DNA of 64,000 nucleotides, from the NCBI RefSeq assembly GCF_009834535.1, contig NC_045696.1, positions 10,728,001-10,792,000 on the forward strand, written 5' to 3'. Below the pieces are notes generated by a model. The model saw only the letters and a list, made by a program, of their open reading frames with translations, made no database searches and had not been told where the DNA came from. Below, piece by piece: positions 815 to 64,000 of the stretch. The first letter of the stretch is position 1. The number at the start of each line of letters is the position of its first letter. This DNA comes from Camelus ferus (Eukaryota). Both the position numbers and the translations under genes were made by a program.

Positions 815-1410
815 TTTATTGTTTGTTTATTAAGTTTTGTCTTACAGTAATATTCATACAAAAGTAGAGAGTATAATATAAAGAACTATCAAGTACTCAA
901 CAACCAGCTTTTATATATCAGTACAGTATCATCTTGCTTCATCCATACCTCCACCCATCACCCTCTTCTTAGATAATTTTGTAGTGACATTAAGTACCTT
1001 TATTTGCAAATATTTCAGTATGTGCCTCTATTAGATAACTGTTATTTAAAAAAAAATTACCCCAATAGTATATTGTACTTTAAAATAACATTTCTTCCTT
1101 AATATCTTTAAATTACTGTCATGTTCATATTTTCCTAGTTGTCTTACAGCTTTTAAATACATGGTTTGAATAAGCATCCAAAAAAGCCCCTACTTTGCAG
1201 TTTCTGAAATGACTTATAAATCTCTTTTATCTATGTGGGTTTCCTCCTCCTTCTTTTTCCTTATTTCTTTTTCTAAAATTTTTATTATTTTTGTTGAAGA
1301 AATTGGATCACTTATCCTATAGCATTTCCCACAGTCTGGATTTTGTTGATTGCAGCCCTATGGTGTCATTTAATGTCTTCTTCCATCCCTTGTATTTCTG
1401 TCCACTTGTA
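815..1410 (-). mobile_element. Old L1 3' UTR (L1MC4/L1MC5-like)
   Basis: aaaagtagagag...atatttcagtatgtgcctcta...ttccttaatatc...gtttgaataagcatcca resembles the L1MC 3' end. Confidence 0.65.
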
Positions 1411-2390
1411 TGTCCACATCTCTTCTGTCATTTTTTCTTTTATTCCTAGTTATTTTCTAAATTCTGCCACCTCTTTTTCCAAACTTCCTTTTCTCCAATC
1501 CCCTTAAATCTGAGGTGTTTTTTTTTTTTTTTAACTCTGAGGTATGTTGTTCTTTCATAGCTTCTATCATTTCCTTAATTTCCTTTAACTTATTCTGGAA
1601 TATTTGAAACATTCTGTGAACATTTCATCCTAGAAGGCGTTCATTGTCTGTAAGACTTTCATTCTACTTCTTTTCTTTTTCTTTCTCTTAAGTTAATTTT
1701 TATGGGTTTCCATCCCAGGGCTTTTCTGTTGTTCATTTTCTAAATGAAAAATTTCCTCTACTTTTAGGAGCCCAGGGAGTGCCAAGACAACCTTTCTATT
1801 TTAAAGGCTCTAGAGCTGTCTCTTCTGTTGTTTTCACAAAGATGTAAAACAAAAAGCTTCAAACTTTTTGAGAGCTGCCTCCTCTGCTCTGCACCCCTAT
1901 TTATCTGCATCTTTTTCCCTTGCCTCTAACTTCTGCTCAGGTGTTCCTTAATGCAAGGCTTCATATGAGAAGGGAGTGTGTTCACTTTGAGAGTGTAGGG
2001 GTCCCAAATCACCCCCACACCACCAGGCTTATTGGATCATGGCCCCACTGCACTTAACCACAGCAGGTTGTCAGAACCCTCTCCTGGTTTCAGCAGCTGT
2101 ATTCAGCTTGGCTTGCTGTGCCCTCCAGTTAATACCTACTGGTGATTTTGTGATTCCCCCATTCTCAGCATCTTCTGAGCCACAATTTTCTTTCCTTCTC
2201 TTTCCCAGCACTGATGCTGCTACCACACAGTTCTTGACTTTTAGATTCTTTGTCCAGACCTGTTAGTATTGGCCCGTAGGGGGATTCCGTCATCATTGTT
2301 GTAGACACTGTCCATGGTGCTTTAGCTTTGCTAGTCTAGTTGCTCTGTTTAGTGGGGAGATTTGAGAAGATTCTAAAACTACCCAATTAT
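1410..2390 (-). mobile_element. HAL1-like (HAL1b-type) 5' part, degraded
   Basis: T-rich antisense body ending in ...ttgctagtctagttgctctgtttagtggggagatttgagaagattctaaaacta, like the HAL1-family 5' end. Confidence 0.45.
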
Positions 2391-3039
2391 TTTTCATTCC
2401 TTCTTTGCCTCCTCTTGGTACCCACTGTGACATCTCAAGACAGTAGATGAGTGATCAGTTCAAATTAATTAGAAGTTTAACTCAATGAAATATTTGAACT
2501 CAGGGATGGGTTTTCTCACAGAGGCCATGACTCCTGCTTCATTTAGTGCTTTCAGGAAAGCACACAGCATGAGAAAAGTGGGCCAGGGATGATAAGGGAC
2601 AGCAGTTGGGTGGGCATGGCTGTTAGAACCCACCTAAAGGCCAAAATGTTGAGTTCTGCCTCTGATACCACCTCTGGCAAAGTTCTCAAGGAGAGAAAAA
2701 AATCACACAGGAAGTGAAGGGAAAACAGCACTAAAAACAAAAATTCTAGTGACCCACCTGGGAATGCCCCAATATTCAACATTTGCAGATTTGCATCGGC
2801 CTCCAGCTTTGTATTGTTGGGCAAGAACTGCACCACCTCCTTCCCACTCCCCCCACTCCCCTCCCCCACCTCTGCTGTTTCCTTGCACTTCCTGGGTGGT
2901 GCAGGGTTGTGATGTCTTGAATACCAAGAGTGAGGCTGAACATATGTGAACCTTTCCTAATCCTGCTAATCTTTCTTCAAAAAACCTTTCTCAAAGTGTA
3001 GGCAACATCCAGATTGTAAAAAGAGAGCCGGAGTGAGCC

Positions 3040-3390
3040 TGAGCATTTTAATGACAAGTAATCTTTGTCCAAGGGGGAGGGGGCGGCTAGCTCAGCTGGA
3101 GATGGAGCTGATGGACTACAGCAGGTAGAAATAACGGCCCGTATTACCTCCTGTAATCTCCACCATTCAGGGGCAGCTGAGGTCTGAATGCAGGAAGAAA
3201 TCGACTTTGCTTTTAAACTGGAGACTTTGCACCCACGACGACTATTAAGCGGTAATTAGTTGTGACACAGAATTACCAGCCCCACAATGGTAGAGGGAGC
3301 CTTGCAAGGCCTTTGAAGCTGATTAGAGAAACTGAATGGATGCTACTTGCAATTTTAAAAATCTGTTCCGATGTGAGCATGAGGTAAGAC
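3040..3390. promoter_or_regulatory. Candidate conserved enhancer
   Basis: Unique sequence with clustered TAAT/ATTA cores (ggtaattag), SOX-like ACAATG at 3284 and TCF/LEF CCTTTGAAG at 3310. Confidence 0.4.
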
Positions 3391-11901: not shown

Positions 11902-11982
11902 ACTTTGCTGTACACCAGAAACTAACACAACATTGTAAATCAACTATACTTCAATACAATTTTATTTTGATTAAAAAAAAAA
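11719..11982 (+). mobile_element. Artiodactyl-type L1 3' end with internal (TG)n(TA)n microsatellite and polyA
   Basis: aacaaggtcctac...ggaactatattcaat...cactttgctgtacaccagaaactaacacaacattgtaaatcaactatacttcaat followed by an A tail; microsatellite at ~11806-11898. Confidence 0.85.
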
Positions 11983-12225
11983 GGCAGGCACCAGACCTTC
12001 CAAACCAGCATGGCCTGGGTCGTGCCGCTTGGGGACACAGTCACTGAAAGAAAAATTGGCCCACGGCTGCCTTTTGCTGAGTGGTTTCCAGAACATTTTC
12101 ATTCTGTTTCATTTGACCCTGAGTCAACGAAGTTCAATCCAATTTGGTTCTTCTGTTTAAAACCACGGATGTGTGCCGTATAGTCAAGGAAGGGTGACTG
12201 ATATTTTTGAGAACTTGTTGTTTTA

Positions 12226-12332
12226 TTTAATTTTAAATTTTTTTAAAATGGAAGTACTGAAGATTGAACCCAGGACCTCCTGCATGCGAAGCACGCACTC
12301 TACCACTGAGTTATACTCCTCTCTGTCCCCCA
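12226..12332 (-). mobile_element. tRNA-derived camelid SINE (vic-1-like), short form
   Basis: Antisense A and B boxes; exact 16-bp TSD agaacttgttgtttta at 12210-12225 and 12333-12348. Confidence 0.9.
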
Positions 12333-12576
12333 AGAACTTGTTGTTTTAAAAGAGTTAAAAAAGTTATCTATTACCCCAGAAATTAATTTAGGTAAACAAC
12401 ATCATGCAGGTGCCAGGTTCCGAGGTGCCCGACATGTATGCAGTGATGTCATTCTTGGTCCATGGCCGGCACAATTTGATATTACCACGTTACACAGAGA
12501 GAGTTAAATTAAGGGTGAGAAACTCATTTTTGTGAAAATTGCTCCTCCCTCATTCTTAGCTATGAATGGTGGCCCG

Positions 12577-18570: not shown

Positions 18571-18652
18571 TTTTTTTTTTCTTTTTTAAAATTGAAGTGT
18601 AGTCAGTTATAAAGTGTCAATTTCTGGTGTACAGCACAATGTCCCAGTCAAT
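18571..18652 (-). mobile_element. Extremely 5'-truncated young L1 (~80 bp)
   Basis: polyT plus aattgaagtgtagtcag...tttctggtgtacagc; TSD ttcca(t/c)agattttt at 18562-18575 and 18653-18666. Confidence 0.85.
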
Positions 18653-20176: not shown

Positions 20177-21353
20177 ACAAATGTTAGCTTTAATTTGGGA
20201 GAGACCTTCTAAAGCATTGCTACAGTATTAAGTGTTTCTATTACCCCATTTACCTGTTAATCTTCATCCCTTGTCAAGTAACTTGAGTTCCCACTTTTGA
20301 ATTAAATCATTAACAAAGAGACTTCAATCAGAACAAAATAGGGTTGGCCTATGGGTAAAATAGCTCATCTTGATATTGAAGGACCTTAAACCCAGGTAAA
20401 GGGAGTGACAGCCCTGTCCCCTCCAGCTTGCTGCTTCTACTCCCAGCCAGGGACGCATCCTGGCAGCTGGACATATACGACTTCTCGGACTGTGCTGCCT
20501 TCACCCAGGAGAGGGACTGGGGGTCTGGTTTTTCAATATTCCCAAACCAGCTTTCTTTAAGAGCAAGGGGGACCAGCCACCAAATTTAAAACAAACACAG
20601 AAAAAGAATCAACGTTTTCTGTTCCGTCCTCTGCACATTGAATGGGGAATCTGTTCAGAGTCTGTGGGTGAACGACGCCCACTGCTCTCAAAATTAATAT
20701 CTGAGTTGCTCACAGAGGACAGGACTGGGCCTTGTATGTTGCAGCGGAGGACACTGAGAGCTTTATAACACAGACAATAGCAGGGCTGTGCAGGGAAAGA
20801 AAAGGCGTCGCATGTTGGTGGGATATGGCTTCTTGCCCCCAGACTGGTGGGTCGCCCTTCTCCTTTGCTCTGTGCAAGGAGCCGCTTGCCTCCCAGACCC
20901 AGGGCCTGTTCTCTGAGGGTCCTCATCAATCACGCGTCCTGTTTGCTCCACGCTGGCCTGATCGGGTCCAGCCCACCAGCTGCTGTGGAGACGTCTGTGT
21001 CGGTGCCTGCCAAGGGGGGGGGGGGTCACAGATGTGTGTGAGATGAGGGATGGGGCCAGATGCTGCTGGGAGCCTCTTCTAAGCAGCGTGCTCCCAGCCA
21101 GCCTATCTGCAGAGAAAACTTTGCTCCACTGAGTAGAGAGGGCCCGCTGCCTTTCCGTCAGTGGGGATACTCACATGGACTTTGTGGAAGACTGCAAGTA
21201 ACACCTGAGTATCAGGCATGAAAAAGCAAAAGGGGTTTCATGTTAATTACGTTTCAAATTACTAACACTTATTTCATATGGTGGCAAAATTTGTTGTAAA
21301 ACTAACAATTTTAGGCAAAAAACTAATTTAAAATGCTTGTACATGTCCCTGCC

Positions 21354-21637
21354 TTTTTTTTTTTTTTCGATCTTCTTTTTTTAAAATTGAAGTATAGTCA
21401 CTTTACAATGTTGTGTCAATTTCTGGTGTACAGCATAATGCTTCAGTCATACTTATACATACATATATTCCATTTCATATTCTTTTTCATTATAGTTTAC
21501 TACAAGATATTGAATATAGTTCCCTGTGCTCTACAGTAGAAACTTGTTTATCTATTTTATATGTAATAGTTAGCATCAACAAATCTCGAACTCCCAGTTT
21601 ACCCCTCCTGACCCCCTTACACCTCTGGTAACCATAA
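21354..21637 (-). mobile_element. Young L1 3' end
   Basis: polyT plus aattgaagtatagtcactttacaatgttgtgtcaatttctggtgtacagc...gatattgaatatagttccctgtgct. Confidence 0.85.
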
Positions 21638-41489: not shown

Positions 41490-42743
41490 AATGGGTATCC
41501 GCATGCAAAAGGATGAAGCTGGACCCCTACCTCATACCATACACAACACTTAATTCAAAATGGATTCTAAACCTAAACATAAGAGTTAAACTATAAAATT
41601 CTTAGAAGAAAATATAGGAGTGAATCTTTGTGACCTTGGATTAGGTAATGATTTCTTAGACATGACACCGAAAGTGCGAACAACCAAAGGGAAAAATGGA
41701 TATGTTGGACTACATCAAAATTTAAAATTCTTTTTGTGTTACAAATGATGACTTTAAGAAAGTGAAAAGAAATCCACAGGTTAGGAGAAAATAGTTGCGA
41801 ATCATATATCTGATATGGGATGAGTATCCAGAATGCATAAATGACCCTAACAATTCAATAATAAAAAGACAATCCAATTAAAAGTGGACAAAGGATTTGA
41901 ATGGACACTTCTCCACAGAGTATGTACAAATGGCCAATAAGCACACCAAAGGATGCTCAATATTGTTATCCATGGAGGAAATGCAAATCAAAACCACAGT
42001 GAGATACTGCCTTACACCCACTAAGCTGGGCTAGAATTGAAAAGATACATAATTTCACTTGTTGGTGAGGATCTGGAGTAATTGGAACCCCCATACACTG
42101 CAGGTGGGGATGTCAAATGATTCAGTTGCTTTGGAAAAGTTTGGCTGTTCCTCAAAAGCTTAAGACTAGAGGTCCATGTGACACAGCAATTCTACTCCTT
42201 GGTACATATCCAAGAGAAATGAAGACATACATCCAAACAAAAGCATGCACACAAATGTTCATAGCAGCATTGTTCATAATAGCTAAAAAAGTGGAAACAA
42301 CCCAAATGTCCATCAACTGAAGAATGGATAAATGAAAGCAGCGTCTACACACAATGGAATATTATTCAGCAGTAAAAAGGACTATAGTACTGATACGTAC
42401 TCCAACATGGAGGAACCTTGAAAGCATGATGCTAAGTGTAAGAAGTCAGTCACAACAGACCACATGGTGTATGAGATGTTCAGAATAGGCAAATCTAGAG
42501 CAAAAGAAAATAGATTAGTGGTTGCCAGGTGTGGGTGGGAAGTGGGGATGGGGAGTGACTGTTAATGGGTTATAGGATTTCTTTGGGGGTGATGCCAGGA
42601 TTCTAAACTTAGTTTGAAGTGATGGTTATCCAACTCTGCAAATATACTAAAACCACTGAATACAATTCAATTTACTCGAATATACTTGAACCACTTAAAT
42701 GAGGGAATACAACTTACAGCTCAATAAAGAAGTTTTTTAAAAA
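41490..42743 (+). mobile_element. L1MB-type 3' end (ORF2 C-terminus and 3' UTR), degraded
   Basis: gaagctggacccctacctcataccatacac..., gaaatgcaaatcaaaaccacagtgagatac..., ends ctcaataaag. Confidence 0.9.
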
Positions 42744-47109: not shown

Positions 47110-47517
47110 TGTTAAGGATTGAATTGTGTCCCTCCAAAAGATGCCGAAGTCTAACCCCCGGGAACTGGGAATGTGACCTTATTTGGAAATAGAGTCTTTG
47201 CAGATGATCAAATTAAGATGAGGTTCAATATGATTGTTGTCTTTATAAAAAGGGGAAATTTGGATGCAGGACAGACACGCACACAGGGAGAAGGCCATTT
47301 GCAGATGATGTCAAGGAACAGAAAAAATGGGCAGCCACCACCTGAAACTAGGAGAGAGCCTGGAACAGATTCTTCCTCACAGCCTCAGTAGGAACCAACC
47401 CTGCCAACACCTTGATCTTGGACTTCTAGCCTCCAGAACTGTGAGAAAATACATTTCTGTTCTTTAAGGGACCCAGGGTATGGTACTTTGTTACAGCACC
47501 CCTAGGCGGTTAATGCA
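47110..47517 (+). mobile_element. MaLR solo LTR (MLT1B/C-like)
   Basis: TG...CA termini; perfect 5-bp TSD ccatc at 47105-47109 and 47518-47522. Confidence 0.9.
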
Positions 47518-48577: not shown

Positions 48578-49033
48578 CCTTACATTAAAAAAAAAAGTAT
48601 CTTTCACTCCATGAAAATGGAGCCACCATTTATAAAGTTCTCTTTGATTTTGGATGTCATATATAATCTATTTTTACATTGTTAATTAGTTGGATGCCAA
48701 CTTATTATGATACCACTGGTCTAATAAACAGAACACAATTTTCCAATCTATGGTTGGAATATAAACCTCCAAGATACATGTCAAACATATACACACATAC
48801 ATTTAATAACATATTAAATATAGTATATAAATTACATATGCTATTGTGTAATTTTAATTATATAAAATGTATATATTTAATGCTACAAATTATTATTTAT
48901 ATTAAAAAATTATTTCCAGGGCCTTTACTTTTTTCCAGAATACTCTTTCATATTTTTGAATTAAATTCTCAGAATAATCCTATAAGCTGGATATTACACT
49001 CCTTGATATTTCTTCTCTCCGTATTTCAGTTTT

Positions 49034-49260
49034 TTTTTTTCACTTTCATGCCTTTATTCAGCAAATGTTTAGTAAATGCCTACCACATACCAGAATCTCT
49101 CTTCTTCCCCATTTTTCTCTTTTCAGCTTCCCTGTCTCTGGGTCTCTCAGTTTCCCTCCCCCGCCTCCCAATGGGCAGCCATCAGCCCTGTCCTCCTCCC
49201 AGATCCTCCTCCCAAGCTCTGCATATCCCTCTTTTCTTTTCTTTTTTTTTTTTTGTGAGC
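49034..49260 (-). other. L1-mediated 3' transduction with its own AATAAA and polyA
   Basis: Non-L1 sequence lying inside the TSD pair and distal to the L1 polyA; tttatt at 49053-49058 is 12 nt from the polyT ending at 49040. Confidence 0.8.
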
Positions 49261-49261
49261 A

Positions 49262-49730
49262 ATTTCTTTCTTTTTTTTTTTTAACATTTTTTATTGAATT
49301 ATAGTCATTTTACAATGTTGTGTCAAATTCCAGTGTAGAGCACAATTTTTCAGTTATACGTGAACATACATATATTCATTGTCACCTTTTTTTTTCGCTG
49401 TGAGCTATCACAAGATCTTGTATATATTTCCCTGTGCTATACAGTATAATCTTGTTTATCTATTCTGCATATGCCTGCCAGTATCTACAAATTTTGAAAT
49501 CCCAGTCTGTCCCTTCCCACCCCCTGCCCTCTTGGCAACCACAAGTTTGTATTCTTTGTTTATGAGTCTGTTTCTGTTTTGTATTTATGTTTTGTTGCTT
49601 TTTTTTTTTTTTTTTTTTTTTTAGATTTCACATATGGGTGATCACATATGGTATTTTTCTTTCTCTTTCTGGCTTACTTCACTTAGAATGACATTCTCCA
49701 GGGACATCCATGTTGCTGCAAATGGTGTTA
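49262..49730 (-). mobile_element. Young L1 3' end (non-inverted part of a twin-primed insertion)
   Basis: polyT, ttttattgaattatagtcattttacaatgttg..., ...catccatgttgctgcaaatgg. Confidence 0.92.
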
Positions 49731-50417
49731 CATTGATGAAGGAAATTAAAGAAGACTTAAAAAAAATGGAAAGATACCCCATGCTCCTGGATTGGAAGAA
49801 TCAATATTGTTAAAATGGTCACACTGCCCAAGGCAATCTACAGATTTAATGTAATCCCTATCAAATTACCGAGGACATATTTCACAGAACTAGAACAAAT
49901 CATAATAAAATTTATATGGAACCACAAAAGACCTAGAATTGCCAAAGCATTACTGAAGAGAAAGAAAGAGGCTGGAGGAATAACTCTCCCAGACTTCAGA
50001 CAATACTACAGAGCTACAGTCATCAAGACAGCATGGTATTGGTACCAAAACAGACATATAGACCAATGGAACAGAATAGAGAGCCCAGAAATGAACCCAC
50101 AAACTTTTGGTCAACTAATATTTGACAAAGGAGGCAAGAATATACAATGGAATAAAGACAATCTCTTCAGCAAATGGTGATGGGAAAACTGGACAGCAGC
50201 ATGTAAAGCAATGAAGCTAGAACACTCCCTTACACCATACACAAAAATAAACTCAAAATGGATCAAAGACTTAACCATAAGACAAGATACAATAAACCTC
50301 CCAGAAGAAAATATAGGCAAAACATTATCTGACGTACATCTCAAAAATGTTCTCCTAGGACAGTCTACCCAAGCAATAGAAACAAAAGCAAGAATAAACA
50401 AATGGGACCTAATGAAA
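49731..50417 (+). mobile_element. Inverted L1 ORF2 segment of the same insertion
   Basis: ORFs 49815-50180 ([19 protein letters not shown]...[12 protein letters not shown]...QWNRIESPE) and 50211+ (MKLEHSLTPYTKINSKWIKDL) are L1 ORF2; premature stop at 50178; ends at the right TSD 50418-50431. Confidence 0.95.
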
Positions 50418-50664
50418 CGTATTTCAGTTTTAGAGGGACTGAATGACCTGACCAAAGTCACCCGAGGGCAGGAACTAGTTAGTGATGGCGTCCTTCTCTG
50501 CAATTCAGAGCCATGTTTGTGACACTTTGCCAGCTGCCTCTCTGAGCGTGGCCGGCAGCTGTGTGTCTTACTGTCTTTCTCGGAGACACCACGACTGCCT
50601 TCAGTGACCGCTGAAGATTATTTTATGACTAATAACTAGTGGTTTTAGTGGGTAGCAGGAACAG

Positions 50665-52865: not shown

Positions 52866-52972
52866 AGGGGTTGTGGTGGGAATAGCTCAGTGGTAGAGCA
52901 TATGCTTAGCATGCACAGGGTTCTGGGTTCAATCCCCAGTCCCTCCATTTAAAAAAGAGAAAGAAACAAACA
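52866..52972 (+). mobile_element. tRNA-derived camelid SINE, short form
   Basis: tagctcagtggtagagcatatgcttagcatgcac...ggttcaatcccc; TSD aagaagtggg(t/g)gaca at 52851-52865 and 52973-52987. Confidence 0.92.
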
Positions 52973-56134: not shown

Positions 56135-56545
56135 TAATGTTTTATTATAAAAATTACAAACAAACTGGGGGGAGAGTAATAGCTCAGTGGTAGAGCACAT
56201 GCTTAGCATGCATGACATCCTGGGCTCAATCCCCAGCATCTCCATTAAAAATATTACAAACAATCTAATAAAAGTAGAGGAAATAATACAAATAACCTCT
56301 ATTGACCCATCATCCAGCTACAAAAAGCACCAATTCCTGGATCTCTGGTTTCACTTACACTGCCACCAGCTTCTCTTCAAGCACCAGGTTATTTTGAAGC
56401 AAATCCCAAATGTCATACAGTTTCATATGTAAATATTGAGTGTCAGCCTCTAAAAGATAAGGAATCTTTATTTCAGTGAGATGACTGTCATACCTGAAAA
56501 AATGAAGAATAATTTCAATTTCATCAAATAAGCAGTCAGTGGAAA
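56135..56545 (-). mobile_element. L1MC5-like 3' end, interrupted by a SINE
   Basis: aaagtagagg...cccatcatccagct...ttattttgaagcaaatcccaa...ctctaaaagataagga. Confidence 0.7.
56167..56250 (+). mobile_element. tRNA-derived camelid SINE, short form
   Basis: A and B boxes; TSD attacaaacaa at 56153-56163 and 56253-56263. Confidence 0.9.
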
Positions 56546-61057: not shown

Positions 61058-61488
61058 AGTGGTCTCCAAACTGCGGTGTGTGCATCCCAGGAGTCGCCCC
61101 ATAGGAGCCTCTGCAGTGTAGAGGGAAAATGTTTGGACTTCCATTTTTGTTTTTTTTTAATCTCATTTAAAATTGTCTTAGGTGGTAGGGTATAGCTTAG
61201 TGATAGAGTGCATGTGTAGCATACACAAGGTTCTGGGTTCAATCCCCAGCACCTCCTCTAAAAATAAATAAATAGACCTAATTACCCCCACCCCCCCCAA
61301 AAGAAAAATAAAATAAAATTTTAAAAAATAAAAATAAAATGAAATAAAAGTGTCTTGCTCTGCTATGGATTTTAATATGTTAATACATTAGCATAATAAT
61401 ATGTGCGTATTTCTAAGTTAAATACACACGTTTGGAGCGTACTCTAACTTATTTTTATTGACAGGTGTATTTGTGAAAAAAGGCACTG
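61058..61488. mobile_element. hAT/Charlie-type MITE (Charlie18a-like) hosting a SINE
   Basis: Starts agtggtctccaaactgcggtgtgtgcatcccagg, has an AT-rich body and ends ...ggcactg. Confidence 0.5.
61180..61345 (+). mobile_element. tRNA-derived camelid SINE, long form
   Basis: agggtatagcttagtgatagagtgcatg...ggttcaatccccagcacctcc...cctaattacccc plus A-rich tail; TSD aaaa(t/g)tgtctt at 61169-61179 and 61346-61356. Confidence 0.9.
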
Positions 61489-63636: not shown

Positions 63637-64000
63637 GAAAACTATAAAACTTTGATGAAAGAAATTGAAAAGCACAGAGATAGAAAGATGTATTCTTGGA
63701 TTGGAAGAATCAATATTGTTAAAATGATCATACTATCCAAGGCAATCTACAGATTCAATACAATCCCTATTAAATTATCAATGGCATTTTTTACAGAACT
63801 AGAACAAAAAATTTTTTTTTCCATTTGTATGGAAACACAAAAGAACCTGAATGGCCAAAACAATCTTGGAAGGAAAAATGAACCTGACTTCAGACTATAC
63901 TATAAAACCATAGTAATCAAAACAGCATGGTATTGGCACAAAAACAGACACATAGATCAATGGAACAGAACAGAAGGTCCAGAAATAAACAAAACCACAC
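63637..64000 (+). mobile_element. L1 ORF2 fragment (frameshifted; continues beyond the window)
   Basis: ttggattggaagaatcaatattgttaaaatg...aaggcaatctacagattcaat...cctgacttcagactatacta. Confidence 0.92.

What the first reader, a model, noticed from the sequence alone, without database searches (positions are those of the whole stretch)
49020..50431. Young L1 insertion carrying a 3' transduction of foreign genomic DNA, bounded by an exact 14-bp TSD
Seen: cgtatttcagtttt occurs at 49020-49033 and again at 50418-50431, where it is followed by 'ag', an L1-endonuclease-like TTTT/A site. The left copy lies ~230 bp beyond the L1's own polyA. Read on the minus strand, the insertion runs L1 3' UTR, polyA, ~190 bp of non-L1 purine-rich sequence, AATAAA (49053-49058), 12 nt, then a second polyA. 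Established: L1 transcripts that read through their weak polyA signal mobilise downstream flank (3' transduction). Inference: 49041-49230 was copied from the locus of the source L1, so it is a barcode for a formerly active camelid master element.
Basis: partly seen in the sequence, partly recalled or inferred. Interest (0 to 1): 0.75.

Follow-up and report, generated by a model that had tools for sequence, protein, structure and literature searches.

The report
Old L1 copy carrying parentless DNA
A broken, partly flipped L1 jumping gene in a camelid genome carried about 200 bases of neighbouring DNA from another locus; that source locus exists but seems no longer to hold the parent L1, an ordinary kind of event already described in humans and dogs.

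Summary
In detail: an exact 14-bp target-site duplication, a TTTT/A nick site, AATAAA 12 nt before a short terminal A-tail, and about 200 bp of non-L1 DNA behind the L1 tail. In 3 of 3 DNA runs laid, a second, about 94% identical copy of the tag runs on for 2 kb past the poly(A) site with no tail. So the tag was copied through a polyadenylated RNA: an L1 3' transduction.

Four corrections. (1) The L1 part is 5'-inverted (twin priming) and lacks about 225 ORF2 codons. (2) It is not very young: tag and donor differ at 11 of 181 sites, while three labelled organisms show 0 substitutions in 548 bp, with no empty allele. (3) No sibling was seen. (4) The donor's upstream contig runs 1-3 kb unbranched, which a related L1 would almost surely break. 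The source L1 is therefore probably gone ('parentless'), although those letters were not shown. The poly(A) signal lies in an old L2-like remnant. This is a new member of a known kind and of low interest.

The parts
49020..49033 (.). Target-site duplication, copy at the 3' (poly(A)) end of the insertion
   Evidence: flank-TSD-tail-tag junction lies in one contig in 3 of 3 DNA runs
49030..49040 (-). Terminal poly(A), A11 here (4 of them inside the TSD); A12 in runs X14 and X17; absent at the donor
   Evidence: tables 4 and 7
49041..49241 (-). Transduced non-L1 tag; 49041-49222 matched to the donor copy (11 substitutions, 1 gap); 49223-49241 not checked
49053..49058 (-). AATAAA used for the transduced transcript, 12 nt before the cleavage site
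   Evidence: donor departs from the window exactly at 49041
49053..49098 (-). Remnant of an old dispersed-repeat end that holds the AATAAA (named L2 3' end from recall)
   Evidence: a matrix from 8 other window copies scores it 24.6 bits, 0 of 2000 shuffles reach that
49242..49254 (-). Internal A13 tract (followed by GAAAAGAAAAG-type repeats): an earlier tail or an A-rich target site
   Evidence: origin not resolved
49255..49270 (-). 16-nt non-L1 spacer between two A-tracts: TSD of the source L1, or a first-round micro-transduction
   Evidence: the two readings are inference
49271..49282 (-). The L1's own poly(A), A12; L1 AATAAA at 49290-49295
49283..49620 (-). L1 3' UTR
   Evidence: follows the ORF2 stop; 74% like another L1 end at 21353-21637
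49621..49730 (-). L1 ORF2 C-terminus (human ORF2p about aa 1240-1275), one premature stop
   Evidence: (E 0.003, 25-residue stretch)
49730..50417 (+). Inverted L1 ORF2 piece (human ORF2p about aa 787-1015), one frameshift, one premature stop; about 225 codons missing between this and the sense piece
   Evidence: E 5e-58; E 3e-21
50418..50431 (.). Target-site duplication, copy at the 5' end; TTTT/AG nick site

Best explanation
A parentless L1 3' transduction, inserted by twin priming some millions of years ago. Step 1 (inferred): an active L1 sat at the donor locus just upstream of the tag. Step 2 (product shown): its transcript ran through its own AATAAA and ended about 240 nt later, 12 nt after an AATAAA in an old L2-like remnant, where it was cut and polyadenylated. 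Step 3 (shown by anatomy): ORF2p nicked TTTT/AG here and reverse-transcribed 697 nt from the tail (tag, A-tracts, 3' UTR, ORF2 end). Step 4 (anatomy shown, mechanism from literature): the second DNA end primed inside ORF2 near codon 1015 and copied 688 nt in the opposite direction; the two cDNAs joined at about 49730, leaving about 675 nt uncopied and a 14-bp duplication. Step 5 (inferred): the offspring became common or fixed, while the source L1 allele was never fixed or was lost, so the donor locus now looks like an empty site. The insert is dead and no function is implied.
For: TSD, nick motif, signal and tail. A 2.1-kb contig in X13, X14 and X17 matches 49041-49127 with 3 differences and leaves the window at 49041 into non-A sequence (tables 7, 8). 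A second contig matches 49101-49222 (8 differences, 1 gap) and runs on for 1529, 3126 and 992 letters. Contigs here break at shared 31-mers: at the 33-bp stretch common to both copies, and inside an old repeat at 47435-47438 in 3 of 3 runs. In simulation, 0 of 200 stretches of 950 bp at 3% per-copy divergence escaped a shared 31-mer even with a single other copy. ORF2 orientation and gap. Parentless transductions are the rule in dog: 17 of 18 (PMC7980453) and 24 of 27 (PMC13141329). Age: 11/181 = 6.1% (95% 3.0-10.9%); 2 premature stops in 262 codons have P = 0.007 at 0.3% divergence and 0.35 at 3%.
Against: The donor's upstream letters were never seen: one search masked 49225-49300 and dropped 4 loose ends there, so absence of the source L1 rests on contig length alone. 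The insertion's own contig to the right of 49130 was not listed in any of the 3 DNA runs, so a filter hides some records and could hide siblings. The depth of the shared node fits two copies in X13 (80 against 39.8+44.4) but not in X14 (12 against 17.8) or X17 (12.8 against 20.1). No empty allele or outgroup was seen. The 675-nt junction deletion is far above the human somatic median of 14.5 bp. Four of the 11 substitutions lie at sites with CG in one copy, which inflates the age. X13 may be the window's source, and X17 shares study P5 with two runs so flagged.
Confidence: 0.78

Rival explanations
1. Ordinary partnered transduction with the parent still in place: a related L1 sits directly upstream of the donor tag today.
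For: The upstream letters were masked, so this is not directly excluded. All transduction hallmarks are shared with the best explanation.
Against: The donor contigs pass 992-3126 letters beyond 49222 without a break, although the same runs break at one shared 33-mer and in an old repeat. The simulated chance of no break is 0.01 for 450 bp at 3% with one other copy and 0 of 200 with ten. It rises to 0.15 at 5% with one copy.
Confidence: 0.09
2. Reverse-polarity chimera: no L1 ever stood at the donor. ORF2p began on the poly(A) of a cellular RNA ending at the L2-like signal, copied about 200 nt, then switched at an A-rich stretch onto the tail of an L1 RNA.
For: It explains a donor with no L1. 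A-tracts at the junction offer homology. Run X19 (guessed to be RNA) holds donor-allele contigs, but it is not shown to be RNA.
Against: In the passages seen, described template-switch chimeras put the cellular RNA at the 5' end and are mostly U6/U6atac (PMC4476161). A lost dimorphic parent is a common, shown route to the same pattern (PMC13103737). It needs a switch and twin priming in one event.
Confidence: 0.07
3. Add-on to the best explanation, not exclusive of it: a two-generation (serial) transduction. The 16-nt spacer plus A13 is a first-round micro-transduction from a grandparent L1, and the 200-nt tag comes from the parent's locus.
For: Three A-tracts in series; the spacer ends in CA-poly(A) and starts with an AAAG, as an endonuclease site would; 16 nt is TSD-sized.
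Against: The same letters fit a parent inserted in front of an A-rich genomic tract, with the spacer as its TSD. The cut would lie 35 nt after the L1 AATAAA. The donor letters at 49223-49270 were not shown.
Confidence: 0.35
4. Two separate events or a DNA-templated patch: a tag retrocopy later hit by an L1, or genomic DNA copied during repair; or a mis-assembly.
For: Nested insertions into A-tracts are common (recalled). Templated inserts under 250 bp are described (bioRxiv 10.1101/2024.08.27.596794).
Against: One TSD pair bounds the whole unit, and L1 sequence abuts the 5' copy directly with no second TSD. The tail is untemplated and sits 12 nt after AATAAA, which points to RNA. The described templates lie within 15 bp of the site, whereas no copy lies in this 64-kb window. 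The left junction is present in two runs not flagged as the source (X14, X17).
Confidence: 0.04

Closest known systems
L1-partnered 3' transduction (human survey PMC9311842, passages seen; Moran 1999, Goodier 2000 and Pickeral 2000 seen only as citations)
   Same: L1 3' end, tail, unique flank, new signal and tail inside one TSD pair; a tail-less donor elsewhere. Tag length of about 200 bp equals the human mean of 206 bp (median 63).
   Different: Camelid host; old and apparently shared by three labelled organisms rather than polymorphic; no source L1 or sibling found.
'Parentless' LINE-1 3' transductions of dogs (PMC7980453, PMC13141329, PMC13103737; passages seen)
   Same: The donor maps elsewhere, apparently with no adjacent L1.
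   Different: Dog cases are dimorphic and point to parents still segregating. Here the 6% divergence means the parent is more likely extinct than hidden. Absence of the parent is inferred from contig structure, not read.
Twin-primed 5'-inverted L1 with internal deletion (bioRxiv 10.1101/2024.08.27.596794, passages seen; Ostertag and Kazazian 2001 seen only as a citation)
   Same: Inverted 5' piece abutting the TSD; deletion at the junction (66% of 1703 inverted insertions there); forward and inverted lengths of like size (697 and 688 nt; that paper reports a positive correlation).
   Different: The deletion is about 675 nt against a median of 14.5 bp; the size distribution is in a supplement that I could not see.

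Membership tests
L1 insertion by target-primed reverse transcription | Short flanking TSD | tested here: met
   14 of 14 identical
L1 insertion by target-primed reverse transcription | Endonuclease motif 5'-TTTT/A at the nick, and 3' poly(A) | tested here: met
   TTTT/AG at 50428-50433; A11 at 49030-49040; motif as given in PMC13141329
L1 insertion by target-primed reverse transcription | L1-derived body | tested here: met
   ORF2p matches at E 5e-58, 3e-21 and 0.003
L1 insertion by target-primed reverse transcription | Orthologous empty site with one copy of the TSD | not testable with these tools
   No empty allele in 3 of 3 DNA runs; no outgroup genome held; the MIR-continuity proxy was weak
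L1 3' transduction | Non-L1 sequence between the L1 tail and a final tail, inside the TSD | tested here: met
   49041-49270
L1 3' transduction | Donor copy elsewhere that lacks the tail and runs on past the cleavage site | tested here: met
   3 of 3 DNA runs, loose end before 49041, contigs of 2099-2102 letters
L1 3' transduction | Poly(A) signal shortly upstream of the new tail | tested here: met
   AATAAA 12 nt upstream; 10-40 bp quoted in PMC9311842
L1 3' transduction | Source L1 directly upstream of the donor (now or once) | tested here: inconclusive
   Letters masked; contig length argues that none is there now; past presence is inferred
Transduction family of a 'master' L1 | Several sibling insertions with the same tag | tested here: not met
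   Only two left-hand contexts of the tag in 3 of 3 DNA runs at 85% likeness; a filter hides some records
Parentless transduction | Donor not adjacent to an L1 | tested here: inconclusive
   Strong indirect support; not read directly
Twin-primed 5' inversion | Upstream L1 piece inverted, abutting the 5' TSD, with a deletion or duplication at the junction | tested here: met
   aa 787-1015 on plus, aa 1240-1275 on minus
Twin-primed 5' inversion | Microcomplementarity at the internal priming site and the junction | not testable with these tools
   Needs a camelid L1 reference; none held

The most novel reading that the evidence does not exclude
The donor never held an L1. The insert is a reverse-polarity chimera in which L1 reverse transcriptase started on a cellular transcript ending at an L2-derived poly(A) signal, jumped through an A-tract onto an L1 RNA, and was closed by twin priming. 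Some 'parentless transductions' in mammals would then be template switches rather than traces of lost source elements.
Probability: 0.07. Interest if true: 0.55.

Novelty: new member of a known kind. Interest (0 to 1): 0.27.

Why it matters
As a single case it matters little: 3' transduction, twin priming and parentless donors are each documented. Its use is as a fossil. If the parent is indeed gone, the tag gives the address of an active L1 allele that lived millions of years ago and never fixed. A genome-wide count of old transductions with and without a surviving parent would measure how often active L1s are purged rather than fixed. The insertion may also serve as a presence/absence marker for camelid phylogeny. 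I found no paper on camelid L1 transductions in two searches, but that library lacks most subscription journals.

Tried and rejected
No whole genome is held for this window, so the donor could not be placed or read. A 32-base piece of the tag found 0 matches in metagenome, viral and prokaryote genome contigs, as expected for mammalian DNA; this is uninformative. No RNA holder is listed on record. Testing whether the insertion splits a MIR: the loose-gap alignment gave nothing above shuffles. A profile from 10 window copies gave a weak hit, 5.1 bits with 1 of 200 shuffles reaching it, nearly all in the right flank and none in the left, so it is not used as support. The first L2 profile collapsed to one sequence and missed the tag; the ungapped matrix replaced it. 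I considered that the 0.93-share runs carry an empty allele and rejected this for the 2 of 5 laid: they differ by one extra T. Rfam found only three tRNA-like SINE copies. Look-ups of earlier scan notes by place, words and sequence found nothing on this locus. Szak et al. 2003 is not held.

Full report
1. Observation. The 14-mer stands at 49020-49033 and 50418-50431, identical and not extendable. The right copy reads on as TTTT/AG. On the minus strand the order is: TSD; inverted ORF2 piece; ORF2 end; 3' UTR; AATAAA (49290-49295); A12 (49271-49282); 16 nt; A13 (49242-49254); about 200 nt of purine-rich non-L1 DNA; AATAAA (49053-49058); 12 nt; A11; TSD. The tag has no second copy in the window.

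2. The L1 part is inverted. 49764-50147 matches human ORF2p aa 798-924 and 50181-50417 matches aa 937-1015, both on the plus strand. 49645-49728 on the minus strand matches aa 1243-1267. The two pieces meet at about 49730, and about 225 codons (675 nt) between them are missing. This is the twin-priming pattern as described in passages of bioRxiv 10.1101/2024.08.27.596794: 66% of 1703 inverted insertions there had a junction deletion, with a median of 14.5 bp, so this one is unusually large. Forward and inverted products are 697 and 688 nt.

3. The donor exists. No genome is held. A run search with 48580-49240 listed 24 runs: 13 at share 0.99, 5 at 0.93, 2 at 0.25 and 4 at 0.00. I laid 4 of the 24 on 48580-49300: X13 (organism B, flagged as a possible source), X14 (organism C), X17 (organism A) and X19 (guessed RNA). 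In 3 of 3 DNA runs one contig covers 48580-49127 with 0 substitutions (X14 and X17 have one more T). The flank-TSD-tail-tag junction is therefore real, and no empty allele shows. In the same 3 runs a second contig of 2099-2102 letters matches 49041-49127 with 3 differences and leaves the window exactly at 49041, with the same non-A loose end in all three. A third contig matches 49101-49222 with 8 differences and 1 gap. A 33-bp piece common to both copies (49098-49130) is a contig of its own. X19 holds a 151-letter contig with window alleles from the T-tract to 49154, which ties the window's right-hand alleles to the tailed copy. So one tailed copy and one tail-less copy exist, and the tail was added 12 nt after AATAAA. 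That shows passage through a polyadenylated RNA. The signal lies in an old dispersed-repeat end: a matrix built from 8 other window copies, with this locus masked, scores 49053-49098 at 24.6 bits, and 0 of 2000 shuffles reach that. The name L2 for this repeat is recalled.

4. The parent seems to be gone. The donor's upstream contigs run 1529, 3126 and 992 letters beyond 49222. Their letters were not shown, because 49225-49300 was skipped as repeat and 4 loose ends were dropped. But these contig sets break at shared 31-mers: at the 33-bp piece above, and at 47435-47438 in 3 of 3 runs, inside an old repeat with 75-77% partners in the window. A source L1 should now differ from this copy about as much as the tag does from its donor. 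In simulation at 3% per copy, the share of stretches with no shared 31-mer was 0.01 for 450 bp with one other copy, and 0 of 200 for 950 bp or with ten copies; at 5% per copy and one other copy it was 0.15 and 0.02. I therefore infer that no related L1 adjoins the donor today. In dogs this is the usual state: 17 of 18 (PMC7980453, passages) and 24 of 27 (PMC13141329, passages) mapped transductions had no adjacent L1, and one was resolved by a dimorphic parent in another assembly (PMC13103737, passages). Against this reading: the inference is indirect; the insertion's own right-hand contig is missing from all 3 DNA runs, so records are hidden; and the depth of the shared piece fits two copies in X13 (80 against 84) but is below the sum in X14 and X17. 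No third context of the tag, and so no sibling, was seen in 3 of 3 runs.

5. Age. Tag and donor differ at 11 of 181 sites, 6.1% (95% range 3.0-10.9%). Four of these lie at sites with CG in one copy. With 5e-9 per site per year (2.5e-8 per 5-year generation, PMC8605555, passages) this is 6 Myr (3-11); with 2.2e-9 (recalled) it is 14 Myr (7-25). Organisms A, B and C differ at 0 of 548 sites at the insertion. Two premature stops in 262 ORF2 codons have P = 0.007 at 0.3% divergence and 0.35 at 3%. A perfect 14-bp TSD has P = 0.42 at 6%, so it does not show youth. The runs listed are the best holders, so fixation is not shown.

6. Mechanism and rivals. Best reading (0.78): read-through of a source L1 that later vanished, cleavage at the L2-like signal, TPRT at TTTT/AG, and twin priming. 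The RNA passage, the donor and the inversion are shown; the source L1 and its loss are inferred. Parent still present: 0.09. A template switch from a cellular RNA onto an L1 RNA: 0.07; in the passages of PMC4476161 known chimeras have the opposite polarity and mostly involve U6. Nested or DNA-templated origin, or mis-assembly: 0.04. Independently of these, the 16-nt spacer and A13 may record an earlier round of transduction (0.35) or be the parent's TSD in an A-rich site; the donor junction decides.

7. Comparison and novelty. It works like, and meets the testable defining features of, an L1 3' transduction with a twin-primed inversion; the source-L1 feature is inconclusive, and the sibling feature of a 'master' family is not met. 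The tag length equals the human mean (206 bp; PMC9311842, passages). Two searches (24 papers held all terms, 20 listed; 2 papers) showed no paper on camelid L1 transduction by title or abstract start. PMC8605555 uses the word once, in a passage not displayed. Supplements were not read; those of the bioRxiv paper are closed and hold the deletion-size distribution. Verdict: real, ordinary in kind, interest 0.27.

Noticed in passing
window 12210-12348: A tRNA-derived SINE (12249-12320, minus) lies between exact 16-bp direct repeats at 12210-12225 and 12333-12348: a SINE with an intact TSD. Related copies are at 52876-52947, 56173-56244 and about 61188-61277.
   Followed up: no
window 49034-49222 (run X19): Run X19, guessed to be RNA, holds short contigs of both the tailed copy and the donor copy; the donor-allele contig ends in a T-run at an A-rich spot, as oligo-dT priming on a genomic A-tract would give. 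Not shown to be RNA or transcribed.
   Followed up: partly
window 49030-49040: The terminal tract is 11 T in the window and in X13, and 12 T in X14 and X17; this explains their 0.93 word share.
   Followed up: yes
window 49599-49622: A 24-base A-run (minus strand) starts inside the ORF2 stop codon, at the head of the 3' UTR, and could be mistaken for a tail; a 9-base run lies at 49387-49395.
   Followed up: no
window 49730: The gap at the inversion junction (about 675 nt) is some 45 times the human somatic median. It may come from early arrest of the tail-primed cDNA or from an already deleted source.
   Followed up: partly
window 21353-21637, 18571-18648, 11906-11983, 41501-41618, 63694-63990: Older L1 3' ends and ORF2 pieces, 73-76% like the insertion.
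   Followed up: no
window 50425-50461: A weak MIR-like match starts inside the right TSD copy and runs into the right flank; the target site may lie in a MIR.
   Followed up: partly
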